Positions 23,025 to 52,534 of a stretch of 64,000 nt of DNA are shown in pieces; the first letter of the stretch is position 1; each line of letters begins with the position of its first letter. The notes beneath the pieces were generated by a model, which worked only from the letters and a program-made list of their open reading frames with translations, was not told the origin of the DNA and searched no databases. Made by a program: the position numbers and the translations under genes. The stretch comes from a phage, in sequence record PZ049338.1, one strand, 5' to 3'.

Positions 23025-23269
23025 AACGGAATATCCTCTTCTAACTGTCTACGAACCTCAGCCTCTGACATTTCAACACAGACAGGGCAATACCACTGAT
23101 TGTTGAGAACCGTTCCCCAGCCGCTTGCTACGGCCCCTGTTGTGGTTCGTATGCCACATGGACAAGGGACTAAGCCCTCGTCGTCAAGAATAAGTTTAGA
23201 TTTAGTTTTAGCCACCAAATAACTCCTTCGCCTGCTGTTTAAACTTCGCAACTTCTTCCGGGTTGTCAC
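23021..23269 (-). CDS. Small basic zinc-ribbon protein ending in SSB-like tail EEDIPF
   Basis: CPC...CPVC motif; C-terminus LEEDIPF resembles E. coli SSB tip DDDIPF. Confidence 0.4.
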   Translation of the reverse strand: MTTRKKLRSLNSRRRSYLVAKTKSKLILDDEGLVPCPCGIRTTTGAVASGWGTVLNNQWYCPVCVEMSEAEVRRQLEEDIPF

Positions 23270-23777
23270 AGTAGTTTAAGTCAGCTTCAAGTAATGCGTA
23301 ATGGATAACTTTCAAAAGATCTTGAAGACCATTCTTATCTTTGTGCCGGTATGCATACTTAATCATATTGCACTGTTGAAAATTTAACTGAGGATTTGCG
23401 TTGTAGAATTCAATTGGCTGAATACGCCCACTACCTGCTTGATAGTGAGAACCACCAACCATAGTGCTTAATGAATTACCCTTAGATGCCATCGCTAATT
23501 GCTCCGTGTGGTCATGTGAATAGTCTACTGGGGCAGTTTTATGTCCAGTAAGCATTGGTACGCAAATGTGGACTTCATTACGCTTACCCACATCAATTGC
23601 CTTTCTTTCATTACTTAATTCATACCCTGTCATTTGGGCTAGGTTATGAAGTTGGTCAGACACTATCTCATACATCTTTCTAAAAGCTTTGGCAGATAAG
23701 GATGCTTCCTCGTATTTTCGGCTTAATACCTGAAGTTCCGCCTCAGTCTCGAAGTGATTAATCATCGTCTTCATCAT
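23208..23777 (-). CDS. Hypothetical protein (189 aa); weak DUF3310-like resemblance
   Basis: GGSHY...IQPIEF motif region; assignment from memory only. Confidence 0.35.
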   Translation of the reverse strand: MMKTMINHFETEAELQVLSRKYEEASLSAKAFRKMYEIVSDQLHNLAQMTGYELSNERKAIDVGKRNEVHICVPMLTGHKTAPVDYSHDHTEQLAMASKGNSLSTMVGGSHYQAGSGRIQPIEFYNANPQLNFQQCNMIKYAYRHKDKNGLQDLLKVIHYALLEADLNYCDNPEEVAKFKQQAKELFGG

Positions 23778-36553: not shown

Positions 36554-37003
36554 TCAGCGACCAGAGCGTACAAAGTATGCCAGCTTGTCGATGGCAGCTA
36601 CTAATTCTTGCAAGATGCTAACAGTCACATCATCCTCTGTATCAAACAGACGAGCCACATGACCAGTTATTGTTTCCAGAGTTTCGACCATATCAGACAA
36701 CATCTCTGAACTGTCGTAGCTGTCAACACCTTCACTGAACCAGCGAACTTCATGATAATACCCTGCCGTTGATTTGACAGGATGCTGTAGGCCACGTAGC
36801 CGCTCAGCAACAATATCAGACCATTCATCAGCAACAGTATCAATATCTTCGAACAGTTTATGGAGACTTCCAAAGTTGGCTCCGGTTACGTTCCAATGAT
36901 AATTCTCTGCCTTGATGGACAGTAATTTGAGGTTGGCAACCACTGGATTCAATGGGTGCAGATTATCTTCACCACTTTGACGTGACGGTCTTGGAGATAA
37001 CAT
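36554..37003 (-). CDS. Dps/ferritin-like protein
   Basis: HWNVTGANFGSLHKLFEDI...DIVAERLRGL resembles Dps family ferroxidase/DNA-binding signature. Confidence 0.5.
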   Translation of the reverse strand: MLSPRPSRQSGEDNLHPLNPVVANLKLLSIKAENYHWNVTGANFGSLHKLFEDIDTVADEWSDIVAERLRGLQHPVKSTAGYYHEVRWFSEGVDSYDSSEMLSDMVETLETITGHVARLFDTEDDVTVSILQELVAAIDKLAYFVRSGR

Positions 37004-37659
37004 TACTCAGTTTCCTTAATAGTTGCTTTCAAGGCCGACCAAGCGACCGGATAAAGGTCAGTCATGATTGCATCAAGTTGCTGTGCAAACAAACGAACCT
37101 CGTATTGAGCATGAGTGCTCGAACGTTGACGGTATACTTCAAACCAACCATACAGTGAACCAGTCCATACCCATTCTGTAACCATCCCTTGCGGGAGTAC
37201 AAAGCGAGCCTGCTCTGGTGCAATGAACTTAATCAGCTTATCGTAGGCAAGTAATGCTGCTTCATATGCGTAATTATACAACACAAGAGCTTCATATTTC
37301 TTAACACCTTCAAGAAGTACACCACCGCCATCATGCAAGTTATCAGGTCGTGCAAAGATTTCCTTAGGAATGAACACTTCGACATTACCATCTTTATATC
37401 GACGGCTCATTTCGTTCCAAGAAAATCCAACCTGATGCTTACCTAGCTGGCGAGCGATTGCGATTGGGGCTTTACAGCGAAGGGTCACTGTTGCGTGCCG
37501 GAATGGGGTTACATGACGTTCACGAGCTAAGAACTTGACCAAGCGAACATCTCGCTCATTCAACTCACCTTCTCGTGTTACACCATAAGATACTCGTGCT
37601 GCGTTAACAACTGAAGTATCATCACCCATTAAATCTACTAATTGCGCTTCAATAGTCAT
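37003..37659 (-). CDS. ThyX-like flavin-dependent thymidylate synthase homolog (non-canonical motif)
   Basis: AARVSYG N-terminal and QLGKHQ...S...SRRY region resembling the ThyX RHR-x-S motif with RHR replaced by KHQ. Confidence 0.45.
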   Translation of the reverse strand: MTIEAQLVDLMGDDTSVVNAARVSYGVTREGELNERDVRLVKFLARERHVTPFRHATVTLRCKAPIAIARQLGKHQVGFSWNEMSRRYKDGNVEVFIPKEIFARPDNLHDGGGVLLEGVKKYEALVLYNYAYEAALLAYDKLIKFIAPEQARFVLPQGMVTEWVWTGSLYGWFEVYRQRSSTHAQYEVRLFAQQLDAIMTDLYPVAWSALKATIKETE

Positions 37660-37673
37660 CCTTGACCCTTATA

Positions 37674-37883
37674 TTAATATTCGATTTTACTTAAAATGAA
37701 AATAGCACCATCAGGTGTTATATTAGCCTTATGCATTGACACTTTAATGTTATGCTTACGGGCAGGTATGAGGTTTTTCAACCCTGCACGGGCTTCTTTT
37801 CTTGTTTTATAAGTCATTAACAATGGTAAGTCGTCTGACTTATCTTTATTAAGAAGCTTGAGTACCCAAATCCATTGAGACAT
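37674..37883 (-). CDS. Hypothetical protein (69 aa)
   Basis: ORF. Confidence 0.3.
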   Translation of the reverse strand: MSQWIWVLKLLNKDKSDDLPLLMTYKTRKEARAGLKNLIPARKHNIKVSMHKANITPDGAIFILSKIEY

Positions 37884-37892
37884 GATTGTACC

Positions 37893-38078
37893 TTAAATAT
37901 GTTCGAAATCTTTACGAGTGGCTTCACGAATATAGAAGCCTTTATAGCCATGACTTGTTGCTAAATCATGTGCTATCTTCTTTGTAGCACAGATAGCCAT
38001 AAGGCAACCCTGCACGACAATAACATGGGCACGTAGTTCACGTTCCATTAACTGTATTCCATTTCTGTTGATTGACAT
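37893..38078 (-). CDS. Hypothetical protein (61 aa)
   Basis: ORF. Confidence 0.3.
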   Translation of the reverse strand: MSINRNGIQLMERELRAHVIVVQGCLMAICATKKIAHDLATSHGYKGFYIREATRKDFEHI

Positions 38079-38223
38079 TCATTACATCGGGTTTTCTTTA
38101 CAGTAATCTCGACATATTGTTTGTTCTTCCCACGAGAAGGAGAGCCTTTCTTAAGCTCTCGAATCTTCGTATAGGAAATGTTAAGCTCTATTCCAGAGCA
38201 GGTTGGACATCTCACTATTCACC

Positions 38224-38466
38224 TCAGTAATTGTAAGGGTCGTAGTCCAAAGAATCAAACCCGTAATCTGAACTATCAAGATAGCGACCCGGAAAACCCA
38301 TTCGCTGATAAGTTGGTTCGCTAGGGATGGTGTTACCACGAGTGATTTTCTTAACTTGGTCAGAGGAGAACAAAGCTAATCCTTCAGAGGTTCGGGCCGA
38401 AGCCCGTTCCCCTTTCTTGACAACCTTACCCTTCTTTAACCAATCTTCGAAGGAGCGGTATTGCAT
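38224..38466 (-). CDS. Hypothetical protein (80 aa)
   Basis: ORF. Confidence 0.3.
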   Translation of the reverse strand: MQYRSFEDWLKKGKVVKKGERASARTSEGLALFSSDQVKKITRGNTIPSEPTYQRMGFPGRYLDSSDYGFDSLDYDPYNY

Positions 38467-38468
38467 GG

Positions 38469-38684
38469 TTATTTACCCCAATGTTCAACAAACTGTTGAA
38501 ACACTTTACGGTCGAATGTGAAATTACGAGCAATATTACATTCAACAAAAGTAGAGCCCATATAGTCTATAGACAATTCATCAGTGTGACCGTGAACTTG
38601 GATAAGGCGTTTAATCTTATCCTTCTCCTTCCGAGGTAACATACGGAATGCTTCCTGTATGTCTGTAATATGCTTAATTTTCAT
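38469..38684 (-). CDS. Hypothetical protein (71 aa)
   Basis: ORF. Confidence 0.3.
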   Translation of the reverse strand: MKIKHITDIQEAFRMLPRKEKDKIKRLIQVHGHTDELSIDYMGSTFVECNIARNFTFDRKVFQQFVEHWGK

Positions 38685-38950
38685 CAGCGAGTCTCTTCTA
38701 AGTCTCGGTTAACACCCACATTACCATCAAGGTTAGCCTGCACTTGAGCAGAAATAACAATCAGGTTCTTAGGGTAGGAGAGGGTTGTTTTACCAGAGCT
38801 AAGCACATGGATTCGAACTTTCAGAGGAGTAACATCCACAACTCGGGCTATTTCTAGCCCTTGGTTGTATTTACCATTACCCCAGACAACAATATCGTCC
38901 AGTCGAATCACCCGGTGCAGCTTATCACGGTGATTGTGTGACAGTAACAT
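38684..38950 (-). CDS. Hypothetical protein (88 aa)
   Basis: ORF. Confidence 0.3.
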   Translation of the reverse strand: MLLSHNHRDKLHRVIRLDDIVVWGNGKYNQGLEIARVVDVTPLKVRIHVLSSGKTTLSYPKNLIVISAQVQANLDGNVGVNRDLEETR

Positions 38951-39240
38951 TAATCAAGACCTCGCACTGTAGAGAGGATGAAATTACGCAGCATGTCTTC
39001 AGTCTGCATCCCTGTTTTGAAACCTACTGGCTTCTTGTTTTCATCAAACACGATGATGGTTGGGACACCACGGATGCCAAAGGTACGAGCTTCTTCGCGT
39101 ACTCCGTCGTCTTCGATGCTACGGGATTCAAAAGTAAATCCCTCTTCTTCCAGTTCATCTTGAACTTTCTTGAAGATAGGCTCGATTGCTTTGCAAGGAG
39201 CACAGGAAGTACCAAAGTATTTAATTACAGAGTAAGCCAT
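38950..39240 (-). CDS. Thioredoxin-like protein (CAPC active site)
   Basis: GTSCAPCK active-site motif and GVPTIIVF cis-Pro loop region. Confidence 0.65.
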   Translation of the reverse strand: MAYSVIKYFGTSCAPCKAIEPIFKKVQDELEEEGFTFESRSIEDDGVREEARTFGIRGVPTIIVFDENKKPVGFKTGMQTEDMLRNFILSTVRGLD

Positions 39241-39998
39241 TATTCACCACCTTCGTTGTCTAATTCCATTGCTTTAACCACTGCCTTACAGAAGCCGCTT
39301 CGAACGATATCGTCAGAAGTACCTTCAACAACAGCAGCATAGTCGCCCAGAGCGTGACGGTTGATAAAATCAATCGCCCAATCCAGACCATTTTCACCAC
39401 CCATATCATTCTGCTCGGAATCCCCGATACAGAACAGCTTAGAGTTCTCACCCAAGCGAGTCATGATTGAGTACATTTCATCAGGTTTGGTATTCTGAGA
39501 TTCATCCACAATGACCACAGCGTTCTCGAAAGAACGACCACGAACATATTCCAGTGGTACGAATTCAATGTTACCAAGACCCATCTGGCACTCATAGAAG
39601 CCATGACCGTAACGACCTTTGATTACATCTACCATAGGCATCAGATACGGTTCAAACTTCTCTTTCAGAGTGCCGGGCAGGAGACCAAGAGATTTACCCA
39701 TACCAACCGAAGGTCGGCTCAGTACAATCTTCTGAATCTTGTTCTGCTTAAGCCAATCTGCGGCTTGACTCATGAGTACAAAAGTCTTACCGCAACCAGC
39801 AGGAGCGTCAACAAACACAACCTGAGCTTCCATCATGCTAGTATGAAGTTCACGTTGGAACTCATTCTTAGGGATGATAGGCTTGATAATGTTTGCTGTC
39901 TCAAACTCACGACGAGCGTGTTGGCTATTACGACGAACAGTTTCTTCGCGCAGTGCTTCACGACGTAATTCACGACGACTAGGCTTAAGTTTCTTCAT
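39240..39998 (-). CDS. phoH: PhoH-like ATPase
   Basis: Walker A DAPAGCGKTF and PhoH-like downstream motifs. Confidence 0.75.
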   Translation of the reverse strand: MKKLKPSRRELRREALREETVRRNSQHARREFETANIIKPIIPKNEFQRELHTSMMEAQVVFVDAPAGCGKTFVLMSQAADWLKQNKIQKIVLSRPSVGMGKSLGLLPGTLKEKFEPYLMPMVDVIKGRYGHGFYECQMGLGNIEFVPLEYVRGRSFENAVVIVDESQNTKPDEMYSIMTRLGENSKLFCIGDSEQNDMGGENGLDWAIDFINRHALGDYAAVVEGTSDDIVRSGFCKAVVKAMELDNEGGE

Positions 39999-40602
39999 TA
40001 TTCAACTCCTCAGTGTGACCAGAGCCAGCATATGCTTGAGTAGCACCCTGCTGACCGTTGTAGTTACCTTTAACAGCGTAAGAGTCGTTACCAACGTCTT
40101 CGTGTTCAAAGAATACCATCTGACCAATGCGCATACCGGGTTTGATAAGGAGTCGGTGATACTTGTTCATATTCTTGAACTCCATAGTAAGCTGTGCGCC
40201 ATGCCAACCGGCATCTGCCCAACCTGCCATCATGTGTTCAAGGAAGCAACGAGCCACTGTAGAACGTAATACAAACTGACTGGAGATAGTATTTGGTAAG
40301 TTAAATGTCTCAACAGAGTGAGCCAAGAAACACTGACCCGGTTCGATAATCAAACCAGTCTCAGGGATAATCTGTTTGATGAACTTAGGAGATTGCTTTG
40401 CAGCAATATCAATCGGTTCAGAATGAACACCCGGAACAGCTTCAGCCATACCAGAAAGGTCTTGGTATTGCCATGCAGGGGCTTCGACCAGAATCTCGTT
40501 ACCAATACGGATATCAATACTCGCTGAGTTTACGTTCTCATGCAGAGCGTCAATAACATTTTCATCAATCAGTTGGTGCAATCGTGTAGAAGAGAGTAAC
40601 AT
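39985..40602 (-). CDS. dCTP deaminase / dUTPase-superfamily enzyme
   Basis: AGWADAGWHGAQLTMEF motif typical of dCTP deaminase family. Confidence 0.55.
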   Translation of the reverse strand: MLLSSTRLHQLIDENVIDALHENVNSASIDIRIGNEILVEAPAWQYQDLSGMAEAVPGVHSEPIDIAAKQSPKFIKQIIPETGLIIEPGQCFLAHSVETFNLPNTISSQFVLRSTVARCFLEHMMAGWADAGWHGAQLTMEFKNMNKYHRLLIKPGMRIGQMVFFEHEDVGNDSYAVKGNYNGQQGATQAYAGSGHTEELNNEET

Positions 40603-40785
40603 TAACTATCCTTAGTCTTCGTCGTTGTCGTTAAAGCGGAATGGGTCGGAGCATTCAATTACCCCAGCGTCTTCGTCTAAGCGAAAGGTCATTCCTGCAA
40701 TTTCAAAATCGGAGTCCATCATGTGTTATTCCTTAACAAGAGGCCACACTTATTATAGTGACCTCTAGAGAGTATCCTTACACCG

Positions 40786-43156: not shown

Positions 43157-43831
43157 TTACAGAGTGTCATAGTAGTCTGCGCGATTATGCAGACACCAGT
43201 CACCCGACTCAACACGGTTACTGTCGCCTTGGTCTTCATCAATGTGATAAATCCAAGCCTTTGCGAAGGAACCATCATCCAGTTGGATTTCAACCTGCGT
43301 ACGGTTATAGAAACCATTCTCAGGGTCACAGGCACTGTACCCTTCCAGCATGTCGTATGCACCAGTCAGACCTTCCAGAGGTGCTTCAAATACATCAACA
43401 ACAACCTGCTTGCCAGACTTGTTAGCCTTAAGGTTCACGGAAGGGAAGTAGGAGCCACCGTAGCGATATAAATCGAACTGGTCTACAGTCACACCCTTAC
43501 TTACAAATTCACCGCCGCCACGAGCGTTTACGTGGAAATTCTGCATGTTGCGACGCAGAGAGCCATAAGTTGCGATGAATACTTTACCGTCTGAAGGAAT
43601 TACTAAGTTCTTTGACATTACTTGTCCTGTTTTAGGTTGTAGATAATATTTAACTTCGACAAATCGCCATGTGTTCTGGAGGTTCTCTGCCATTTCTTTT
43701 GCTTCTGGGTAAGTTAAGCCACAGCCAAGCTGATAACCTTCCTCACCCTTACTCATGCGACCAATCAGTAAATAACGAACTTCATGGTCACCTGTTAGTG
43801 GTTCTTTAATTGAGAGCTTCATCTTATACAC
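43157..43831 (-). CDS. GGCT/AIG2-like (gamma-glutamyl cyclotransferase fold) protein
   Basis: YGSLRR motif characteristic of AIG2/GGCT family. Confidence 0.45.
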   Translation of the reverse strand: MYKMKLSIKEPLTGDHEVRYLLIGRMSKGEEGYQLGCGLTYPEAKEMAENLQNTWRFVEVKYYLQPKTGQVMSKNLVIPSDGKVFIATYGSLRRNMQNFHVNARGGGEFVSKGVTVDQFDLYRYGGSYFPSVNLKANKSGKQVVVDVFEAPLEGLTGAYDMLEGYSACDPENGFYNRTQVEIQLDDGSFAKAWIYHIDEDQGDSNRVESGDWCLHNRADYYDTL

Positions 43832-43887
43832 TTCTCACCCCTTGTTATGTTCGACAAAGGCCACTCCGAAGAATGACCTTTAGCAAA

Positions 43888-44424
43888 TTACCAGAGCTTA
43901 TTAAGAGCCAGATTATTAGTAATCACTGGTGTGCTTTCGTAATCATCCAGAGATGTTGGGCCCATACTAATAGCACCATATCCAGTTACGTGAACACTTA
44001 CACGGGTCATCTGGTCGAAGAATTCCTTCATCTGAGACGGTTCTGTGATGTTCTTTCCAGCAACACCAAGAACCTGTACACGCTGACCAGAGGAGCGCAG
44101 ACCCTTCTTAGTGACCACTGCCGTAACTGTCTGACCAACAACAGTGGGCTTAGTTAATACCTCAAAGAACACACCGGATATGTCAGTTACACCCTGTTCC
44201 ATATGCATTGTTGCATAGTTAACTTTGTAGGTGTTTGGAACTTCATATACACGGGTAGATTTGAAAGTAGTACCAATGTAGTTATCTGCATTGAAGTCAC
44301 GGGAACGGCTACGACGTTCAGCCTCAATGAGAAGTGATTGGTAATAACCTTCCAGTATTTCACCAACACCTTTACGAGTTGTACTTAACCCGATTACTCG
44401 GGAATATCCAATAATTAAGAACAT
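43888..44424 (-). CDS. Hypothetical protein (178 aa)
   Basis: ATG 8 nt downstream of conserved 22-bp promoter-like motif. Confidence 0.45.
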   Translation of the reverse strand: MFLIIGYSRVIGLSTTRKGVGEILEGYYQSLLIEAERRSRSRDFNADNYIGTTFKSTRVYEVPNTYKVNYATMHMEQGVTDISGVFFEVLTKPTVVGQTVTAVVTKKGLRSSGQRVQVLGVAGKNITEPSQMKEFFDQMTRVSVHVTGYGAISMGPTSLDDYESTPVITNNLALNKLW

Positions 44425-44432
44425 TAAGAATC

Positions 44433-44454
44433 TCTCTTTATATATGTGGATTAA
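44433..44454 (-). promoter_or_regulatory. Copy B of conserved 22-bp promoter-like motif
   Basis: Reverse complement GTTAATCCACATATATAAAGAG followed by AGATTCTTAATG (start codon). Confidence 0.35.
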
Positions 44455-44457
44455 CTA

Positions 44458-44997
44458 TTACAATTTCTGAGTCACTGTTTCGTAGGTGGTTACTACCTTT
44501 TTCTTCTTCTCAGTGATACCGGAAAGAAGTGCCCAATAGAAACGACCGCCATGACGTTCAGCCATCTCAGCAGCAATCTGCTCTGCCTTCTCAGCAGTTT
44601 CCACCACTACGCGAGGTGGACGAGATGATTCAGGACACCACAAGATATACTTACCGAGGTTCTTATCTTTAGGAGAAGCCTTGGCTTCCGCTTTAGCTGT
44701 CTCTTGGGTAGCAGTAGAACTTTCACCCAAATCGTTGAGACGCCATGTATACAAGGCAGTACCTGATAGTAGGGTCAGTCGGCTACGAATGATGAAGCTG
44801 GTTGGTCGCTGATTCAACTGTATAGAATACAATTGACGACCATGCTTGTCAATTAAGCACACTTCCCAACGACCCGGATATAACAAGTAGATTCCAATAG
44901 TGTACATGAACCTATTACCAATACGAGCCTCTGCACGGTCATGGTCATGGAAGTTGAAGTTAACAGAAGAGGGGATGTGGATTAACTTCTTAGACAT
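44458..44997 (-). CDS. Hypothetical protein (179 aa)
   Basis: ORF. Confidence 0.4.
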   Translation of the reverse strand: MSKKLIHIPSSVNFNFHDHDRAEARIGNRFMYTIGIYLLYPGRWEVCLIDKHGRQLYSIQLNQRPTSFIIRSRLTLLSGTALYTWRLNDLGESSTATQETAKAEAKASPKDKNLGKYILWCPESSRPPRVVVETAEKAEQIAAEMAERHGGRFYWALLSGITEKKKKVVTTYETVTQKL

Positions 44998-45203
44998 TAT
45001 TTACCAACCTTAGTTACGCTTTCAACAAGAGCATAAGGGAATGCGGCTTGCAATTCCATGTGACCTGCCTTACCACCAATAGTCTTGTTCTCAATGAAGA
45101 TGTAGAACTTGTAGTGGTGAGGGTCAATCTGAACCATTGTTGCAGGAATGATTTTATCCGCAGAGTCAAGAAGTTTTACACGATATTTAATAATCTCAGC
45201 CAT
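44997..45203 (-). CDS. Hypothetical protein (68 aa)
   Basis: ORF. Confidence 0.3.
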   Translation of the reverse strand: MAEIIKYRVKLLDSADKIIPATMVQIDPHHYKFYIFIENKTIGGKAGHMELQAAFPYALVESVTKVGK

Positions 45204-45207
45204 TTCT

Positions 45208-45477
45208 TTAATCCCAGTTAGGTTGGAGGTCTTTCATTGCGAAGTCACGTACTTCACCACGTTCACGGCAAACAGCTTTTACGAACCACTGTTCACCTTC
45301 ATGGTACTCAGAGATACCATACCAAATATTGATTGGTACAATAGTGCGCTCTGCTGTTTCACCGCGCCAGTTAGTGTAGGTCACACGGTGTGGTACTTGT
45401 AGAACTAATAACTTTGGTCGTGCTGTTTCAGAAGGGACTTTCGTCGTCATAATCTTCACCGTAGACAATAGAATCAA
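45208..45477 (-). CDS. Hypothetical protein (89 aa)
   Basis: ORF. Confidence 0.3.
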   Translation of the reverse strand: MILLSTVKIMTTKVPSETARPKLLVLQVPHRVTYTNWRGETAERTIVPINIWYGISEYHEGEQWFVKAVCRERGEVRDFAMKDLQPNWD

Positions 45478-45703
45478 TGAACGCTTGATGTTTTGCCAAC
45501 TTCTTTTTCATGAGTTTGTTGTGGACTTGAAGAATATTAGAGACCTCTTTGGTGACAGTCACATGAGGTACAGCAACACCTTCAGCGAATTTTAGTCGCT
45601 TAAAGGGAGCGACAAGGTAAATGAACTTAGCAACTTCAGTGTTGTTTCGTAAATTTACCTCTTCCCCATTAGTTAACTTATAATACACCCAGAGATTCCA
45701 CAA
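45428..45703 (-). CDS. Small protein ending in SSB-like acidic tail DYDDESPF
   Basis: C-terminal motif resembling the SSB C-terminal tip. Confidence 0.35.
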   Translation of the reverse strand: MWNLWVYYKLTNGEEVNLRNNTEVAKFIYLVAPFKRLKFAEGVAVPHVTVTKEVSNILQVHNKLMKKKLAKHQAFIDSIVYGEDYDDESPF

Positions 45704-46865
45704 TAATTACATCGTTAGTTGTAACCATGATTTCCCAGCCAGCCAGTTCGAACATACCACCGGTGAATACACCTACGTTACGAACATCATCGTTACGCAT
45801 CTGAACGATGTAGATGCCGTTTTCAACCAAGCGAATTGGTTCCTGACGCGTCACAGTAGCTGTTACCTCTGCTTCGATAGCGAAGTTTTCATCTTCAGCA
45901 GCTTCTACTGCATTGTCTGTGGCAGTCTGGTTCTGAGTTACAATGTCAACCAGTTCCTGAGCGGCAGCGTTACCACGAACGATTGCTGCTTGCAATTCAC
46001 TGTTGGTGTTCACTTCATTTTGCAATTCAGCCAGAGCTTCATTAATATCTTCGACAGCATAAACTTCCTGACCATTGAAGATTGCCATTACGTTGGCTGC
46101 AAAACGTTCTGCGTTAGAACCGGTCATACCCGGAGCAGTGTTAACTTCCAGTACCCACGCTTCATCACGACGAGTAATGAGGTCAACTGCACCGTAGTCC
46201 AGACCCAGAGCAGCGATTGCTTTCAGGGCTTCACGCTTAGCTTCTTCATTAGGCTCAGCCTGCTGAGTTGCATAAATCCAACCAGTGTGGTGATTTCGGA
46301 TAATATCACTGTATTCTGGCAGGTCAGCGTAACCGTTCACACGCTTCTTCTGCTGAATGTTAGTGATAACACCATTCATCACATGGATGCGGTATTCACG
46401 ACGCTGAGCATTAACACCCTTGGTGTAAAGCTGTGCATTAGCCAGAGTACCTTGAACACCATCACCGAAAAGCTCTTCGTTGTTGGTTGCAATCACAATG
46501 CCTTCACCAGAGTGTCCAGAAAGGCGTGTACGGCAATAAACCAGATGACCTGCATCAAGCCATGACTGAGCTTCTTCACGGTCTGTAGTGTACTCTACAG
46601 TCTTCACATCATTGCGACGGAATACTTCGAAAGAGATACGTTTGTTGGTCGCATTACCAACGTTGTACGGGTTGTTCAGGATGCGGGCATTGCCGATGAT
46701 TTCGGCAGATAGGGAGGATGAACCGTAGTTGACAATTAAGTCACCACTGCGACCACGGAAGCGAGAGCCATCAGTCAGGAGACGAAGTGCTCCCGGCATT
46801 AAAGGCATGAGTTCGTTCAGGGTGTCAGAAGGGCCATTTGAATATACACGTAAGCGAGGTGCCAT
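45678..46865 (-). CDS. ATP-grasp ligase (RimK/glutathione-synthetase-like)
   Basis: Flexible loop RTRLSGHSGEGIVIA, EYRIHVMNG, DYGAVDLITRRDEAWVLEVNTAPGM matching ATP-grasp motifs. Confidence 0.75.
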   Translation of the reverse strand: MAPRLRVYSNGPSDTLNELMPLMPGALRLLTDGSRFRGRSGDLIVNYGSSSLSAEIIGNARILNNPYNVGNATNKRISFEVFRRNDVKTVEYTTDREEAQSWLDAGHLVYCRTRLSGHSGEGIVIATNNEELFGDGVQGTLANAQLYTKGVNAQRREYRIHVMNGVITNIQQKKRVNGYADLPEYSDIIRNHHTGWIYATQQAEPNEEAKREALKAIAALGLDYGAVDLITRRDEAWVLEVNTAPGMTGSNAERFAANVMAIFNGQEVYAVEDINEALAELQNEVNTNSELQAAIVRGNAAAQELVDIVTQNQTATDNAVEAAEDENFAIEAEVTATVTRQEPIRLVENGIYIVQMRNDDVRNVGVFTGGMFELAGWEIMVTTNDVIIVESLGVL

Positions 46866-46907
46866 TGTTGTTACCTTTTCAGTGGGTTGTTGGAAATCAA
46901 TATTATA

Positions 46908-46927
46908 AGAGGCTCCGAAGAACCTCT
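46908..46927 (-). terminator. Intergenic UUCG-tetraloop hairpin (weak terminator or processing site)
   Basis: On - strand AGAGGTTC-TTCG-GAGCCTCT; downstream tract only moderately U-rich. Confidence 0.3.
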
Positions 46928-46938
46928 GAAATATGGAC

Positions 46939-47178
46939 TTAAGCGGCCATCAATGCGATGAGTTTGCGGTTTTCATTCCTGAGAGCACCAATCTCATCAT
47001 CAATAAGACTGTAGTGGTACGATAACATTTGGAGGGACATTTCACCTACATCTGAGGCAGTCATCTGCTCGACGTAAGTTGCCTTCTCCTCAATCAGCCG
47101 TCCAATGTCTTTGTTGTTTTGTGCTATTAAATCCATCGCCTCTTTACGAGCAGCTCTTGCGACTTCATTATCAGCCAT
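46939..47178 (-). CDS. Hypothetical protein (79 aa)
   Basis: ORF. Confidence 0.3.
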   Translation of the reverse strand: MADNEVARAARKEAMDLIAQNNKDIGRLIEEKATYVEQMTASDVGEMSLQMLSYHYSLIDDEIGALRNENRKLIALMAA

Positions 47179-47402
47179 TAGACTTCAATCCCCTTCAGAC
47201 GGCAGTAGTCAGCCAGCATCATGTGGATTGATACCGGATAAGGGATAGCCACTTTAACACCTTTTTGCTCTTCGTAAAGACCAATCTGGTAGGCACGAAC
47301 TGCACGGAGCATATCAGAACCTAAATCAGTCATTGGAACTTTACGAATCACAACCGGGTTCTCCAGACGAAGAACCTTAACTTCTTTCATTGAATCATCC
47401 AT
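47178..47402 (-). CDS. Hypothetical protein (74 aa)
   Basis: ORF. Confidence 0.3.
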   Translation of the reverse strand: MDDSMKEVKVLRLENPVVIRKVPMTDLGSDMLRAVRAYQIGLYEEQKGVKVAIPYPVSIHMMLADYCRLKGIEV

Positions 47403-47417
47403 ATTCTCATTTACCTA

Positions 47418-49409
47418 TCATTTCTTGTTTGAAACTTTACCCGGAACCTTTCCAGTTTCCAGAACTTTTGAACAGCGTTCACAGCAAGGTGTACTGCCGA
47501 TAAACTCTGTAACCGCTGCTTTGTTGAAAGGAATCTTGTAGTTGCAGAAAGAGCAAGTGTTCATCTCTTCCCACTGAACCAGAGTCACTTTCATACCGTT
47601 TTGCAGAGACTTGCGATAAGTCAGGATTGGTCGGACATTACTGCCGCTATTCTTCCGCGCTTCCACAATCTCATTCTGGAGAGCTTTCAGTTCACTCTTC
47701 AGATGCTTGTTACTGTGGCACTGTAAGCAGAGGCTCTCAACCTCTGATTCAGCATCAACAGGTAACTCTTCTTGACAGTTGATACATTCAAAACGAAGCG
47801 AGTCGTCAGAGGACGTCTTTACACCATCAACTAACCCCGCATCTACACAACCACCACAATAGGCGTAATCATGATAGATTGTTGAGTCTGCCACGAAATC
47901 GAACGGTATTGGAGAGCCACAGTTTCCGCAGCAATTGTAAGACCCGTTTCCCTCCCATTCCTTTTTTGTGACTACAGTTCCGTCACGAGTTGTGTCCATT
48001 GTGTAACCATCATCTTCCTCTTCTTCGAGTTCAGAGAAGTCACCAATTGAAACACCGGGAGTGGTAAGAGTTAGAGCCGGCGGGGTACGATTGTTCTTGA
48101 CAGTGTTGAACTCTGTCAGAATATCATTGATATCTTCATCTAACGAACCTTCATCATCCAAATCCAATGTTGAAGGAATTAGGGTCTCACCTTGTGGTGA
48201 AACATCAGATACGATGATAGTCAGGATGTAGTTTGATTCGTAACAAGAGATAATCTTGCCTTCGAACATACCACCATCGGTGTACATTTCCAGAGGAACG
48301 CCATGACCCTGAACCTCAATGTAAGCGCCTTCACCTATCCAACCGGTAAGTTGACCTTTCTGAGGATTCTTAGGATACGGTTCGTACTGATACGCTTCGA
48401 ACACCATACGTTCATGCATCTTGTATGGAACCTGATGCACTTCCAGAAGTTCGTTAAGCTGCTTGTACTTGTTGCTCACTGAATCAGGGACACCAATGTG
48501 AGAAGGCTCAACGTTGCTTCGATTAACGCTGCTGCGAGAAGGATTGTTATAAACACGCGACGAGCCGTAGGTGTCATAACGGTCTGAAAAGTAGTCATCA
48601 TACGACTGGTAGGAATTGCCCCAGTAGCGCGATTGGTATACCGTTTGAAACACAGGCAGCTCGTGCTTGATTTCCTCCTTAAATACCAGACCATCAGTTG
48701 CATCAAATACATACTGAGTTCCGACTTCGAGTTCAAACTCTTTGTCGAAAGTTGGGTTCCACTTCTTACGGGACATAATCCACTTGAGCATGTCCTTCTC
48801 AGAAGCACCATACCAGTCACCACCAGTGGTCTTCATCATGTAGAATGGACGCTCGTCGTTACGCAGGAAGTTCAGCGTATTCAGCTTAGCGTCATGCCAC
48901 ACCAGAACGAATGCACCATGCAATTTCTTGATGGTTTCTTCGATACCGATAGTTGCGATTGAATGGCAAACGTTCTCACTGTCCACTTCAAACTGCTCAT
49001 GGTCAGGGAGTAGGCTTTGGTTTACTAATGAGCCGTTGTGAACCAGAGTGATATGTCCACATTGGAATGGGTGGGCGTTCTTGTCAACCACAGCTCCAGC
49101 AGTTGCATAGCGGTTGTGACCAACAATGAATCGAGGGTACGACACTGATGTTGTTTTAACACCGAGGTTGTTAACATTCTCAGAACGATGCTGAGCAATA
49201 TCTTTCCACAGAGTTGAACGAAGGAAAATGTCACTTGGTACAGCTTTCTTAGCCGTCTTCAAGAAGGCATCCTGCTGATACGGCTTGTAATAAGCCATCA
49301 CCCCAGTTGAATGGTCGCCTCGGAACACATCGGCATACAACATCTGCTCGAAACGCTCGAGGTTAGTTGAAGATAAGGCGGTTCCACCTACAAATACAAT
49401 TCCACACAT
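47418..49409 (-). CDS. Class-II (Ntn) glutamine amidotransferase-like protein with C-terminal triple zinc-ribbon region
   Basis: N-terminal MCGIV nucleophile; C-terminal CxxC pairs (CGNC...CGGC, CINC...CLQC, CSFC...CERC). Confidence 0.55.
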   Translation of the reverse strand: MCGIVFVGGTALSSTNLERFEQMLYADVFRGDHSTGVMAYYKPYQQDAFLKTAKKAVPSDIFLRSTLWKDIAQHRSENVNNLGVKTTSVSYPRFIVGHNRYATAGAVVDKNAHPFQCGHITLVHNGSLVNQSLLPDHEQFEVDSENVCHSIATIGIEETIKKLHGAFVLVWHDAKLNTLNFLRNDERPFYMMKTTGGDWYGASEKDMLKWIMSRKKWNPTFDKEFELEVGTQYVFDATDGLVFKEEIKHELPVFQTVYQSRYWGNSYQSYDDYFSDRYDTYGSSRVYNNPSRSSVNRSNVEPSHIGVPDSVSNKYKQLNELLEVHQVPYKMHERMVFEAYQYEPYPKNPQKGQLTGWIGEGAYIEVQGHGVPLEMYTDGGMFEGKIISCYESNYILTIIVSDVSPQGETLIPSTLDLDDEGSLDEDINDILTEFNTVKNNRTPPALTLTTPGVSIGDFSELEEEEDDGYTMDTTRDGTVVTKKEWEGNGSYNCCGNCGSPIPFDFVADSTIYHDYAYCGGCVDAGLVDGVKTSSDDSLRFECINCQEELPVDAESEVESLCLQCHSNKHLKSELKALQNEIVEARKNSGSNVRPILTYRKSLQNGMKVTLVQWEEMNTCSFCNYKIPFNKAAVTEFIGSTPCCERCSKVLETGKVPGKVSNKK

Positions 49410-49465
49410 GGATAATAATCCTCTAAGTTCATTTAAATGGGGCCGAAGCCCCTGTTTGTTAATAC

Positions 49466-51133
49466 TTAAGCGATATGGTCGTTATCTGGCTCATAATCAT
49501 CGTCTTCTTCAATATCGTCATCTTCAGATGATTCATACATATCGTAATCACCACCACGACGAGGTACAGGGACTTCATTACGAGCTTCACGGTTCTCTTC
49601 ATTACGCATGTCTACGAACTGACGGTAGAAGTTTCCGAACAGACGAGAACGTTGAGCCTGATTGGTTTCGTAGATGAACCAATCAATGTCAAAAGTGATG
49701 CCAAGCATATCGCACTTCCAACGCAACTCAGCTAACCAACGGAATGTCAGCATTGGAGGGCGGGTGTTCTCCAACAACCAAGTGCCATTACTGCGGGTTT
49801 CCAGATTGATTCGCAGGTGTTCCCAATAGCGAGGTTCCAGATAGAAATTTGTACGATGACTTGAATCATCCTCGGCAGATTTCACAGTGTGAACGTAAGC
49901 ACTGAGTTTGCGTAGGGTTGACATTGAAATCACTTCATATGCCAGTTTGTAGCCAATGTCCAAATCTTCTTCGAAGTTCTGAACAACCTTCGGCAGACCC
50001 TTACGAATTGCGCTGTGAATCGGCAATGTTGATAGGTACTCAATGAAGTCACTATCAGTACCTTCGAAGTTCACCGCCAGTTCCTTCAGTGATAAGAAGC
50101 GGTTAGTCAGGCGAATAATGCTGCCCTTACGCCACTTGGCCTCACTAATACGGAATTCAACTGAACCAAAACTACTCATCGGTAACAAGTTCAGTGAAGT
50201 GTACTTATCCCATTCACGGGTTACACGATTAGTGAAATCGTGGTTGTCCAGATGCCAGTTGTTAGCCAGAGTAGCTAACTGCTCCTGTGCAAAACCAAGA
50301 GCAACACAGAAGTTGTTCTTGTAACGATGCCAACCAGAGCAGCGGAACAGTACACGCTCATAAACAATATACGCAAGAATCATGCGCTTCAGTTGAGCGA
50401 CACTCAAATCACGTACATCAATGTGAACGTGGGTGGAGCAACGCCAAGATGTATCTGGCGTATGACGGAACAGGAAGGAGTCGATTTCCAGGGATGCTGC
50501 ATAGAGGTCACGACCACCCCAAGGGGATGAACATACAAACTCCATACCTGAGTTACGAAGTGAACCATCTAGCTTTGCTTCCCAATACTGGAAAGTTGGC
50601 TCATCACTGAGGTGAATCTCTTCGAGTTCAATCTCAATACCTGCCAGATGTGTTCCAACAATTAAAGGATGACCCTGAATAGTTGGGTAGGTTGCACGTT
50701 GCCCGTAAATCTGTGCAATATTCATGTTATTCGATACCTCTACGTTTCCGGAGATGAAGCCGTTGCGGCTTGGATTATTAACGCTTCCGTGTCTCTGGTT
50801 ACCAATCTCTTCCCGTAGATTGTCTCGTGTGTATGCGTGTTGACCTCTTTGAAGTCCAGTGAAGAGGCTAGGTCTCTGGCTTTCGCGCTCCATTCTCCGC
50901 TGTCTTGCTTGTTCATCAGCACGGTTATTCAACCACGTCATGAAGGCACTATCTTCTGACTGAGCTACCCCCTGATTCACTATTGGCACAGGTGGCTCTT
51001 CGAAAGCTTGAGATACAACACTTTCTGTTACATTCGGAGGTTGATAATTAGCCCATCTGTCCATGTGTACAGTGGCTTCAACGTCGAAGAAACCCCCAGT
51101 TAATCCTGGGGAGTTGTTACTGTTATTTGGCAC
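49466..51133 (-). CDS. Amidoligase-like protein (GCS2/glutamine-synthetase-like fold candidate) with acidic C-terminus
   Basis: THVHID H-x-H motif; operon context with ATP-grasp and amidotransferase. Confidence 0.35.
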   Translation of the reverse strand: MPNNSNNSPGLTGGFFDVEATVHMDRWANYQPPNVTESVVSQAFEEPPVPIVNQGVAQSEDSAFMTWLNNRADEQARQRRMERESQRPSLFTGLQRGQHAYTRDNLREEIGNQRHGSVNNPSRNGFISGNVEVSNNMNIAQIYGQRATYPTIQGHPLIVGTHLAGIEIELEEIHLSDEPTFQYWEAKLDGSLRNSGMEFVCSSPWGGRDLYAASLEIDSFLFRHTPDTSWRCSTHVHIDVRDLSVAQLKRMILAYIVYERVLFRCSGWHRYKNNFCVALGFAQEQLATLANNWHLDNHDFTNRVTREWDKYTSLNLLPMSSFGSVEFRISEAKWRKGSIIRLTNRFLSLKELAVNFEGTDSDFIEYLSTLPIHSAIRKGLPKVVQNFEEDLDIGYKLAYEVISMSTLRKLSAYVHTVKSAEDDSSHRTNFYLEPRYWEHLRINLETRSNGTWLLENTRPPMLTFRWLAELRWKCDMLGITFDIDWFIYETNQAQRSRLFGNFYRQFVDMRNEENREARNEVPVPRRGGDYDMYESSEDDDIEEDDDYEPDNDHIA

Positions 51134-51717
51134 TGTGGTAATTCCTTGGCTAAAAAGCGAACCAAGTGACGTGCTTCAGCAGCCACTTCGATAGCATCGT
51201 CAGAGAGGAACTTACCGATGCTCACATCCTTGTAGCGTAAGTCTGAATTGACACGCAGGAATACCCCTCCAATAACTTCAGGATACTCATTTTTGTTGAA
51301 GAACGCTTTGATGTTCTCCCAACTAAAGCGGAAGTTGTTACAGATACGGCTGTGGGTTAACCCCTTCTTAGTTGAGCGATTTGCACGATAACTGACCCAT
51401 ACGAAGTTGTTTCCAATCTTCACGAATGCAGGCTCAGGTAATTCTAGAACCAGATTCGGGTCAGTATGAGAGATGGATACGTTACGGTAATTACCATCGT
51501 CACCCATCGTCGTTCCGTGGAATACCAGAGCATCTTCAGCTTCCTGAGAATACGCTGCACGGTCACGCTGTGCTCGCGTCATTTCACTGAAATCCAGAAC
51601 AGTATTGTCATGGGTCACTGCGTCAATCTGGAAGGGCTGGACTTTACCAGCCTCATCCTTCAGACCAACGTAAGTCCCAGAGTAATACATTGAGAAATCG
51701 TCGGTAAGCATTAGCAA
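51100..51717 (-). CDS. Hypothetical protein (205 aa), translationally coupled in amidoligase operon
   Basis: Overlaps both neighbours by short coupling overlaps. Confidence 0.4.
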   Translation of the reverse strand: MLMLTDDFSMYYSGTYVGLKDEAGKVQPFQIDAVTHDNTVLDFSEMTRAQRDRAAYSQEAEDALVFHGTTMGDDGNYRNVSISHTDPNLVLELPEPAFVKIGNNFVWVSYRANRSTKKGLTHSRICNNFRFSWENIKAFFNKNEYPEVIGGVFLRVNSDLRYKDVSIGKFLSDDAIEVAAEARHLVRFLAKELPQCQITVTTPQD

Positions 51718-52514: not shown

Positions 52515-52534
52515 TTCGTTTTCCTTAAAGAGGG

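What the first reader, a model, noticed from the sequence alone, without database searches (positions are those of the whole stretch)
37003..40602. Nucleotide-metabolism module with a ThyX-like protein carrying a non-canonical active-site motif
A dCTP-deaminase-family gene (39985-40602), PhoH (39240-39998), a thioredoxin (38950-39240) and a ThyX-like gene (37003-37659) are clustered. The ThyX-like protein has KHQ where canonical ThyX has the RHR dUMP-phosphate-binding motif (QLGKHQVGFSWNEMSRRY). This could be a divergent thymidylate synthase or an enzyme producing a modified pyrimidine.
Basis: partly seen in the sequence, partly recalled or inferred. Interest (0 to 1): 0.5.

Follow-up and report, generated by a model that had tools for sequence, protein, structure and literature searches.

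The report
Phage ThyX of the KHQ/SRRY subclass
The gene is a real flavin-dependent thymidylate synthase (ThyX) whose odd "KHQ" motif is the normal signature of a very large, mostly viral ThyX subclass that some bacteria also use as a housekeeping gene, so it most likely just makes dTMP for phage DNA.

Summary
All four ORFs lie at the stated coordinates on the minus strand, and the ThyX homologue reads QLGKHQVGFSWNEMSRRY where T. maritima ThyX has R78-H79-R80.

KHQ is not a peculiarity of this phage. It is present in 116 of the 120 closest homologues. Among 150 diverse representatives, KHQ (79) and KHK (20) dominate and RHR is rare (2).

The subclass keeps every residue that binds or activates dUMP (H53, Q75, E86, S88, R90, Y91, E144, R147, R174). 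It changes together the residues that clamp the phosphates: R78K, R80Q/K/T, loss of E58 and of R/H165, gain of R89 (SGRY to SRRY), and one extra residue.

The protein passes Pfam Thy1 and NCBIfam thyX (equivalog) cut-offs, and its model matches T. maritima ThyX (TM 0.82).

The same subclass sits in syntenic chromosomal loci in Spirochaetia (beside pyrD and pyrF/pyrE-like genes), Nitrospinaceae, Poribacteria and Chloroflexota. It also occurs in prophage-like modules.

Best reading: the phage dCTP deaminase and this ThyX feed dTMP synthesis. A modified-pyrimidine synthase is not excluded but has no positive support. No member of the subclass appears to have been characterised biochemically. Interest is low to moderate.

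The parts
37003..37659 (-). ThyX (flavin-dependent thymidylate synthase), KH[QK]/SRRY subclass, 218 aa
   Evidence: Pfam Thy1 144 bits, full length. NCBIfam TIGR02170 thyX equivalog 123.5 bits, cut-off 87.9. PHROG 85 thymidylate synthase, E 1e-60. AF2 model pLDDT 94.8; Foldseek TM 0.82 to T. maritima ThyX. About 97% identical to the annotated ThyX of Salmonella phage PKM.Hi.22.6.
37432..37440 (-). Codons for K74-H75-Q76, aligned to T. maritima R78-H79-R80
   Evidence: KHQ is present in 116 of the 120 closest homologues.
37396..37407 (-). Codons for S85-R86-R87-Y88 (Tm S88-G89-R90-Y91). R86 is the subclass-specific extra arginine.
   Evidence: Position 89 is Arg in 139 of 150 representatives, against G/A/Q in 7 canonical sequences.
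39985..40602 (-). dCTP deaminase (DCD/dUTPase superfamily), 205 aa. Presumed supplier of dUTP or dUMP.
   Evidence: Pfam DCD, E 5.6e-33. NCBIfam dCTP_deam equivalog 94.2 bits, cut-off 92.8. The residues aligned to E. coli Dcd S111/R115/E138 are S/R/E, read from the alignment with E. coli numbering from memory. 51% identical to phiEco32 gp72.
39240..39998 (-). PhoH-like ATPase. Its role in the module is unknown.
   Evidence: Pfam PhoH, E 2.3e-54. PHROG 170, E 9e-83.
38950..39240 (-). Thioredoxin, 96 aa, with a CAPC active site in the translation
   Evidence: Pfam Thioredoxin, E 1e-12. The translation shows GTSCAPCK. In phiEco32 the thioredoxin gene lies directly upstream of thyX.
36554..37003 (-). 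Dps/ferritin-like protein, translationally coupled to thyX (TAATG)
   Evidence: Pfam Ferritin, E 8e-10. PHROG 3636, E 1.9e-33. Junction sequence. A Dps-family gene is also in the phiEco32 module.
23208..23777 (-). dNMP kinase. Inferred next step (dTMP to dTDP). It lies outside the finding's coordinates.
   Evidence: PHROG 26149 deoxynucleoside monophosphate kinase, E 7.9e-46. That it acts on dTMP is an inference.

Best explanation
The ORF at 37003-37659 encodes a working flavin-dependent thymidylate synthase (ThyX). It belongs to a large sequence subclass that I call KH[QK]/SRRY.

Proposed pathway, largely inferred:
- The phage dCTP deaminase converts dCTP to dUTP, or directly to dUMP if it is bifunctional.
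- The host dUTPase, or the enzyme itself, yields dUMP.
- ThyX methylates dUMP to dTMP using methylene-tetrahydrofolate as carbon donor and NADPH-reduced flavin as reductant. Tetrahydrofolate is regenerated, so no dihydrofolate reductase is needed.
- The phage dNMP kinase carries dTMP onward.
This shifts the pyrimidine pool from C to T for a phage genome of about 43-44% G+C.

Shown here: family membership, fold, conservation of all dUMP-contacting and catalytic residues, subclass-wide conservation of the variant motif, and use of the subclass in housekeeping chromosomal loci.

Inferred: chemistry at the uracil and flavin N5 is unchanged, and only the positive charges that clamp the phosphates have been redistributed. 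K74 would stand in for R78. The new R86 (Tm position 89, supplied by the neighbouring subunit's S-x-R-Y loop) would stand in for the lost R80 and R/H165. The loss of E58 points to an altered grip on the AMP half of FAD.
For: - Membership: Pfam 144 bits full length, NCBIfam equivalog above cut-off, confident model with all top PDB matches being ThyX at TM about 0.8.
- Active site: in 150 diverse representatives H53, Q75, E86, S88, R90, Y91, E144, R147, R174 and Q180 are at least 96% conserved, and all are present in the query. The same set is shared with 7 canonical sequences.
- The motif is a class trait under selection: KHQ in 116 of 120 close homologues down to 56% identity; 79 KHQ and 20 KHK against 2 RHR among 150 representatives.
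- Co-varying switches appear at E58, 82, 143 and 165, positions not used to define the class.
- Inteins are inserted exactly at the motif in several members. Inteins are known to favour active centres (PMC5050341).
- Cellular use: syntenic, long-ORF chromosomal loci in independent assemblies. Spirochaetia: citrate synthase, aldo-keto reductase, SDR | ThyX | dihydroorotate dehydrogenase, OMP decarboxylase-phosphoribosyltransferase. Nitrospinaceae: AcrB, HlyD | ThyX | LytB. Chloroflexota: 2-oxoacid dehydrogenase E1-beta and E2 | ThyX | MFS transporter. Poribacteria: also syntenic.
- The subclass also occurs in prophage-like replication modules with RNR in cultured Proteobacteria.
- In phages it often stands alone next to replication genes with no constant partner, as expected for an enzyme that acts on a host metabolite.
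- The window has no ThyA and no second thymidylate synthase.
- The dCTP deaminase has its catalytic residues.
Against: - I found no biochemical or genetic characterisation of any KH[QK]/SRRY member. All solved ThyX structures matched are RHR type, as is the characterised mycobacteriophage enzyme.
- Two arginines that the literature calls conserved ligand contacts are missing. The compensation by R86 is inferred from covariation only. No tetramer or ligand model could be built.
- I could not check whether the bacteria that carry the subclass in housekeeping loci lack thyA or a canonical thyX.
- Related Gordonclarkvirinae are strikingly resistant to restriction-modification systems with no known modification pathway (PMC11990801), which leaves room for unusual DNA chemistry.
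Confidence: 0.85

Rival explanations
1. The variant ThyX makes a modified pyrimidine nucleotide. For example, it could release 5-hydroxymethyl-dUMP by letting water attack the exocyclic-methylene intermediate instead of reducing it. The product would enter phage DNA and protect it from restriction.
For: - 5-hydroxymethyl-dUMP is an acid-trapped species in ThyX catalysis (PMC3498832), so the chemistry is conceivable.
- Gordonclarkvirinae are remarkably resistant to restriction-modification systems without a known mechanism. The authors suspected a covalent DNA modification linked to the dCTP deaminase locus (PMC11990801).
- The substitutions lie in the flavin/nucleotide phosphate site.
Against: - The same motif class is a housekeeping gene beside pyr genes in bacteria, and it occurs in prophage-like elements. 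The class as a whole therefore cannot be dedicated to base modification.
- No class-specific change touches the residues around uracil C5 or flavin N5 (H53, S88, R90, Y91, R174 are all kept).
- The window has no dUTPase and no homologue of the phiEco32 nucleotidyltransferase. No annotated hmdU-type hypermodification enzyme turned up among the ORFs scanned.
- phiEco32 DNA was restriction-mapped and sub-cloned.
- LC-MS of phage 7-11 DNA reported only trace dADG, but that assay targeted 7-deazaguanines only.
Confidence: 0.06
2. The subclass is a thymidylate synthase with a different cofactor arrangement from canonical ThyX. It might bind FMN, or a loosely held exchangeable flavin, instead of tightly bound FAD. 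Three residues that canonical ThyX uses, or may use, to hold the AMP-pyrophosphate half of FAD (R80, R/H165, E58) are gone.
For: - Coordinated loss of R80, R/H165 and E58 and gain of R89 across the class.
- The review assigns RHR and Arg165/190 to the AMP phosphate, the ribityl and the FMN phosphate of FAD.
Against: - This is purely sequence-based.
- K74 and H75 are kept, and Q/K at position 80 can still hydrogen-bond a phosphate.
- The role of E58 is recalled from memory, not verified here.
- This is a refinement of the best explanation rather than a different function.
Confidence: 0.06
3. The protein acts on another nucleotide (UMP or dCMP, as the ThyX paralogue PolB does in polyoxin synthesis), or it is a catalytically dead nucleotide-binding protein.
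For: - ThyX paralogues with relaxed substrate range exist (PolB; PMC5954106; PDB 4p5a appears among the hits).
- The RHR motif is altered.
Against: - R174 and R90, which according to the literature recognise and polarise the uracil ring (from memory), are invariant, as are R147, Q75 and E86.
- Strong purifying selection acts on the whole active site over thousands of sequences (6902 hits at E<=1e-3), which argues against a dead enzyme.
- The query scores far better against T. maritima and T. thermophilus ThyX (E 1e-24 to 6e-30) than against PolB (2.4e-16).
Confidence: 0.03

Closest known systems
Canonical ThyX / FDTS (T. maritima TM0449, T. thermophilus, M. tuberculosis, H. pylori, PBCV-1 A674R, mycobacteriophage L5/D29 gp48)
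   Same: - Same fold (TM about 0.82) and same length.
- Same family by Pfam and by the TIGR02170 equivalog model.
- Identical dUMP and catalytic residues: H53, Q75, E86, S88, R90, Y91, E144, R147, R174.
   Different: - RHR becomes KHQ.
- S[G/A/Q]RY becomes SRRY.
- E58 and R/H165 are lost.
- One extra residue lies between the two halves of the ThyX motif (X8 instead of X7).
- No member of this subclass has a solved structure or, as far as I could find, a measured activity.
ThyX of phiEco32-like and 7-11-like C3 podoviruses (Gordonclarkvirinae, Grimontviridae) and other phages: Chaseviridae, Aeromonas LAh_6, roseophage CRP-4, Rheinheimera Barba, N4-like FBKp27
   Same: - 71-97% identical within the C3 podoviruses.
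- Identical KHQ...SRRY motif.
- Similar gene neighbourhood in phiEco32 (dCTP deaminase, Dps-like, thioredoxin, ThyX, PhoH).
- All are annotated as thymidylate synthase in GenBank.
   Different: - Gene order differs.
- phiEco32 has a 437-aa 'nucleotidyltransferase' between the exonuclease subunit and the dCTP deaminase. It has no homologue in this window.
E. coli-type dUMP supply route: Dcd, then Dut, then thymidylate synthase
   Same: A dCTP deaminase paired with a thymidylate synthase reproduces the main enterobacterial route to dTMP. This is established knowledge of pyrimidine metabolism, recalled from memory. The DCD catalytic residues are present.
   Different: - The synthase is the folate-sparing ThyX instead of ThyA.
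- No phage dUTPase was found, so that step is either done by the host or built into a bifunctional DCD. This was not resolved.
PBS1/PBS2-type uracil DNA, suggested for Gordonclarkvirinae in PMC11990801
   Same: A phage-encoded dCTP deaminase would raise the dUTP pool.
   Different: A conserved, apparently active thymidylate synthase in the same module argues against dU-DNA, which requires that dTMP synthesis be avoided. No Ugi-like or dTMP-phosphatase function was identified among the ORFs scanned, but small ORFs were not examined.

Membership tests
ThyX / flavin-dependent thymidylate synthase (Pfam PF02511, TIGR02170) | Full-length match to the family profile above the curated cut-off | tested here: met
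   Pfam Thy1 144 bits (cut-off 24.8), profile 1-191 of 191. TIGR02170 equivalog 123.5 bits (cut-off 87.9).
ThyX / flavin-dependent thymidylate synthase (Pfam PF02511, TIGR02170) | ThyX fold | tested here: met
   AF2 model pLDDT 94.8, pTM 0.89. The top 50 Foldseek PDB hits are all T. maritima ThyX, TM 0.79-0.83.
ThyX / flavin-dependent thymidylate synthase (Pfam PF02511, TIGR02170) | Literal ThyX signature RHR(X)7S (Myllykallio 2002, as quoted in PMC2826268) | tested here: not met
   The sequence is KHQ(X)8S. The His and the Ser-x-Arg-Tyr part are kept. The deviation is shared by most of the nearest 150 representatives, so the literal pattern is too narrow to define the family.
ThyX / flavin-dependent thymidylate synthase (Pfam PF02511, TIGR02170) | dUMP-binding and activating residues (Tm Q75, E86, S88, R90, Y91, R147, R174) and H53 | tested here: met
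   All are present in the query and at least 96% conserved in the subclass.
ThyX / flavin-dependent thymidylate synthase (Pfam PF02511, TIGR02170) | Residues holding the FAD phosphates and AMP (Tm R78, R80, R165; E58 from memory) | tested here: not met
   R78K, R80Q, R165Y and E58R in the query. The same positions are non-canonical across the class, and Arg appears at position 89.
ThyX / flavin-dependent thymidylate synthase (Pfam PF02511, TIGR02170) | Homotetramer with bound flavin; dUMP to dTMP activity with CH2H4folate and NAD(P)H; complementation of thyA | not testable with these tools
   Needs protein chemistry or genetics. The monomer-only prediction cannot show the three-subunit active site.
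dCTP deaminase (TIGR02274, Pfam DCD) | Profile match above cut-off and catalytic Ser/Arg/Glu (E. coli S111, R115, E138) | tested here: met
   94.2 bits against a cut-off of 92.8, a narrow margin. The residues aligned are S, R and E. Whether the enzyme is monofunctional or bifunctional was not resolved.
Thymine-replacement or hypermodification pathways (SPO1-type hmdU, PBS-type dU) | Companion functions: dUMP hydroxymethylase of the ThyA family, dTTP/dTMP-removing enzyme, dUTPase inhibitor or Ugi, 5-hmdU kinase or transferases | tested here: not met
   No ThyA-family gene and no dUTPase. No phiEco32-type nucleotidyltransferase. None of the ORFs scanned with Pfam or PHROGs matched such functions. 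Small ORFs and 12 kb of the genome outside the window were not examined.

The most novel reading that the evidence does not exclude
The KH[QK]/SRRY proteins could be a mechanistically distinct class of flavin-dependent thymidylate synthase, with a re-wired flavin and nucleotide phosphate site (different flavin form or binding mode). In phiEco32/7-11-like phages the enzyme might release a non-thymine C5-modified dUMP that contributes to their unexplained resistance to restriction-modification systems.
Probability: 0.07. Interest if true: 0.7.

Novelty: new member of a known kind. Interest (0 to 1): 0.3.

Why it matters
For this window it matters little. The gene is an ordinary auxiliary nucleotide-metabolism gene, and near-identical GenBank records already annotate it as ThyX.

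Two modest points go beyond that.
- The textbook RHR(X)7S signature does not describe a very large, mostly viral branch of the family. In that branch the phosphate-clamping residues have been exchanged as a set. At least one evolutionary survey filtered on the literal motif. No structure or enzymology exists for the branch, although ThyX is an antibiotic target and its mechanism is studied closely.
- An apparently active thymidylate synthase next to the dCTP deaminase argues against the published suggestion that these podoviruses carry uracil DNA. The cause of their restriction resistance should probably be sought elsewhere, for example in the DpdA-like gene or the amidoligase cluster in this same window.

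Tried and rejected
- A regex tabulation of the motif in distant representatives missed most sequences. A MAFFT alignment replaced it.
- The search for related loci with a 49-sequence alignment failed because no stretch was conserved enough. A 10-sequence alignment worked, but its search pattern (ARQL.KHQ) finds only variant-type genes. That scan therefore says nothing about how often the variant and canonical types occur in cells.
- A search for named cultured carriers returned almost only unnamed metagenomic proteins.
- L042 from a Prochlorococcus single-cell assembly looked phage-like (39% G+C, short one-directional ORFs) and was dropped as evidence.
- Three key papers are not held: Ulmer 2008 (mutagenesis of the Mtb ThyX motif), Koehn 2012 (folate site), and Liu & Yang 2004 ('distinctive ThyX motifs' in Trichodesmium). 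One literature search on Arg95/Arg97 returned only irrelevant papers.
- Mycobacteriophage L5 gp48 was checked as a possible characterised member. It is canonical RHR.
- I considered that KHQ might be an alignment artefact. I rejected this because three independent alignments agree and the upstream ARQxx spacing is identical.
- I considered the dU-DNA idea from PMC11990801 and judged it unlikely here, because of the conserved ThyX and the absence of the nucleotidyltransferase.
- A multimer or ligand model to test the R86 compensation could not be made with the tools.

Full report
**What is there**

The window is a phage genome about 96% identical at the DNA level to Salmonella phage PKM.Hi.22.6 (OR053651, Grimontviridae). 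It is more distantly related to Salmonella phage 7-11 and to the phiEco32-like Gordonclarkvirinae, the prolate C3 podoviruses.

On the minus strand, at exactly the coordinates given, lie these genes:
- a dCTP-deaminase-family gene, 39985-40602;
- PhoH, 39240-39998;
- a thioredoxin, 38950-39240;
- six small ORFs of unknown function;
- a ThyX homologue, 37003-37659;
- a Dps/ferritin-like gene, 36554-37003.

Neighbouring genes overlap: DCD and PhoH by 14 nt, and ThyX and the Dps-like gene share TAATG. Promoter- and terminator-like sites are no more frequent than in shuffled sequence. The block therefore reads as part of one long replication and nucleotide-metabolism operon, which continues into the DNA polymerase exonuclease subunit and the primase/helicase.

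**The motif**

The peptide QLGKHQVGFSWNEMSRRY is encoded at 37396-37449. HMMER alignments to solved ThyX structures place K74-H75-Q76 on T. maritima R78-H79-R80. There is one extra residue before the S-x-R-Y segment, and MAFFT alignments agree.

What RHR does is described in two ways in the literature:
- One review assigns it to the FAD phosphates and ribityl, with the first Arg also contacting dUMP and the isoalloxazine ring (PMC6514825).
- Basta et al. list Arg-78 and Arg-80 among residues that hydrogen-bond dUMP directly (PMC3498832).

**It is a ThyX**

- Pfam Thy1 matches end to end (144 bits).
- The NCBIfam equivalog model for thyX scores 123.5 bits against a cut-off of 87.9.
- An AlphaFold2 model built on 49 homologues is confident (pLDDT 94.8, pTM 0.89).
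- Its 50 best matches among solved structures are all T. maritima ThyX, at TM about 0.8.

**The motif is a class trait, not an oddity**

- KHQ with the extra residue is present in 116 of the 120 closest database homologues, down to 56% identity.
- An exhaustive HMMER search of 1.84 billion cluster representatives found 6902 relatives. Among the best 150 the triplet is KHQ in 79, KHK in 20 and RHR in 2.
- The variant type occurs in phiEco32, Erwinia phage Orgeat (Chaseviridae), Aeromonas LAh_6, roseophage CRP-4, Vibrio 5P1c, Rheinheimera Barba, the N4-like Klebsiella phage FBKp27 and, with KYA, Streptomyces phage StarPlatinum.
- Canonical RHR is seen in mycobacteriophage L5 gp48, cyanophage S-RIM14, Thermus phage P23-45, Pseudomonas phage TIVP-H6 and Rhodobacter phage RcCWillis.
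- Several variant members carry inteins inserted exactly within the motif. Inteins typically sit in active centres (PMC5050341).

**What changed and what did not**

In T. maritima numbering, these residues are at least 96% conserved among the 150 representatives and all are present in the query: H53, Q75, E86, S88, R90, Y91, E144, R147, R174 and Q180. A scan of all aligned positions, comparing 86 variant with 7 canonical sequences, shows the same shared core.

| Position (Tm) | Canonical | Variant class |
|---|---|---|
| 58 | E in 7 of 7 | never E among 86 |
| 78 | R | mostly K |
| 80 | R | Q, K or T |
| 82 | A | G |
| 89 | G, A or Q | R, giving SRRY (139 of 150) |
| 143 | R | P |
| 165 | R or H in 7 of 7 | about 1% R or H |

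Positions 80 and 89 were used to define the classes, so the independent evidence for a coordinated switch comes from 58, 78, 82, 143 and 165.

The switching positions include the ones the literature assigns to the FAD phosphate and AMP site (RHR and Arg165/190). My reading is an inference, not a result. The chemistry at uracil C5 and flavin N5 is unchanged, and the positive charges that clamp the phosphates have been redistributed. The new Arg-89 would be supplied by the neighbouring subunit's S-x-R-Y loop and would stand in for the lost Arg-80 and Arg-165. I could not build a tetramer with ligands to test this.

**Cellular carriers**

A scan of one genome per prokaryotic species found 74 loci of the variant type. 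The pattern used can find only that type.

Four lineages show long-ORF, syntenic chromosomal contexts in independent assemblies:

| Lineage (loci) | Upstream genes | Downstream genes |
|---|---|---|
| Spirochaetia (L018, on a 1.79-Mb chromosome; L019) | pyridine-nucleotide-disulphide oxidoreductase, citrate synthase, aldo-keto reductase, short-chain dehydrogenase | dihydroorotate dehydrogenase; fused OMP-decarboxylase/phosphoribosyltransferase |
| Nitrospinaceae (four assemblies) | AcrB-type pump and its HlyD partner | LytB/IspH |
| Chloroflexota (two assemblies) | 2-oxoacid dehydrogenase E1-beta and E2 | MFS transporter |
| Poribacteria (two assemblies) | enolase-superfamily gene and others | class-V aminotransferase and others |

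A gene kept next to pyrimidine-biosynthesis genes in a small bacterial chromosome is most simply that organism's thymidylate synthase. I could not check whether those genomes lack thyA.

In cultured Proteobacteria (Vreelandella, Phenylobacterium, Novosphingobium) the variant gene lies in phage-type replication modules with family-A polymerase, primase, helicase and ribonucleotide reductase. These modules sit inside contigs of 0.5-4.4 Mb, so they are prophage-like elements.

**The rest of the module**

- The DCD-family protein just passes the NCBIfam dCTP deaminase equivalog cut-off (94.2 against 92.8).
- It has Ser, Arg and Glu aligned with the E. coli Dcd residues I recall as S111, R115 and E138 (alignment).
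- The window has no ThyA and no separate dUTPase.
- A dNMP kinase lies at 23208-23777.
- The simplest pathway is dCTP to dUTP (phage DCD), to dUMP (host Dut or a bifunctional DCD), to dTMP (ThyX), to dTDP (dNMP kinase).
- This suits a phage of about 43-44% G+C growing in a host of about 52% G+C (host value from memory).
- The roles of PhoH, the thioredoxin and the Dps-like protein in this pathway are not established. Homologues of all three occur in the corresponding region of phiEco32.

**The modified-base alternative**

It deserves consideration. The BASEL II study found Gordonclarkvirinae 'remarkably resistant' to restriction-modification systems with no known modification pathway. The authors speculated about uracil DNA, based on the dCTP deaminase and a neighbouring nucleotidyltransferase (PMC11990801).

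Four points count against it here:
- That nucleotidyltransferase (phiEco32 gp73) has no homologue in this window.
- A conserved thymidylate synthase in the same module argues against dU-DNA.
- None of the ORFs scanned matches the companion enzymes of thymine-replacement pathways.
- phiEco32 DNA was restriction-profiled and sub-cloned (PMC9965538).

The subclass as a whole cannot be dedicated to base modification, given its housekeeping and prophage settings. A phage-specific change of product cannot be ruled out by sequence. 5-hydroxymethyl-dUMP is an acid-trapped species in ThyX catalysis. I give this about 6%.

**Known or new**

- Near-identical proteins are already annotated as ThyX in GenBank, and genome papers on these phages list a thymidylate synthase and a dCTP deaminase.
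- I found no structure or enzymology for any KH[QK]/SRRY member. All solved ThyX chains that matched are canonical.
- Stern et al. removed sequences deviating from RHRX7S by more than two dissimilar residues (PMC2826268).
- A 2004 paper whose title mentions 'distinctive ThyX motifs' in a bacterial ThyX could not be read. It may already describe this class.

**Verdict**

This is a real but ordinary gene. It belongs to a widespread, uncharacterised sequence subclass of a well-known enzyme family. Confidence that it is a functional thymidylate synthase is 0.85. Interest is 0.3.

Noticed in passing
window 43157-54628 (minus strand): A conserved cluster of genes:
- gamma-glutamyl cyclotransferase-like (43157-43831)
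- RimK-like ATP-grasp (45678-46865)
- 663-aa class-II glutamine amidotransferase (47418-49409)
- 555-aa Amidoligase_2 (49466-51133)
- phiEco32-type COOH-NH2 ligase (51711-52514)
- several unknown ORFs
From memory, it resembles the phiEco32 amidoligase/peptide-ligase system predicted by comparative genomics. Its target is unknown.
   Followed up: partly
window 21832-22551 (minus strand): A 239-aa ORF matches the PHROG 'queuine tRNA-ribosyltransferase' (E 6.6e-77). This makes it a DpdA-like 7-deazaguanine DNA transglycosylase, as reported for phage 7-11, which carries only trace dADG (PMC6884629). The corresponding gene in OR053651 seems to be annotated as a Co/Zn/Cd efflux membrane-fusion protein. 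That is probably a misannotation, but I did not verify it by alignment.
   Followed up: no
window 40603-40785, compared with L003 2019-3332 (phiEco32): phiEco32 has a 437-aa 'nucleotidyltransferase' between the exonuclease subunit and the dCTP deaminase. The BASEL authors linked this gene to a possible DNA modification. This phage has only a 183-bp gap there, and no homologue anywhere in the window (tblastn best E 0.15).
   Followed up: yes
proteins P0121, P0258 and other long representatives: Several KH[QK]/SRRY ThyX homologues carry inteins inserted inside the ThyX motif itself. Two insertion points are seen: after KHQxGF and after NE. Some of the inteins contain HNH endonuclease-like sequence.
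   Followed up: partly
window 36554-37003 (minus strand): A Dps/ferritin-like gene is translationally coupled to thyX (TAATG overlap). A Dps-family gene is also in the phiEco32 module, and a gene annotated only as 'DNA binding protein' lies in the corresponding Aeromonas LAh_6 region. Why a Dps-like protein travels with ThyX is unexplained. One speculation is protection against peroxide made by the NADPH-oxidase side reaction of ThyX.
   Followed up: no
window 39985-40602 (minus strand): The dCTP deaminase is 205 aa, against 177 aa in phiEco32. By comparison with solved Dcd structures, it has an insertion of roughly 25 residues around residues 40-68. Whether it is monofunctional or a bifunctional dCTP deaminase-dUTPase was not resolved.
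   Followed up: partly
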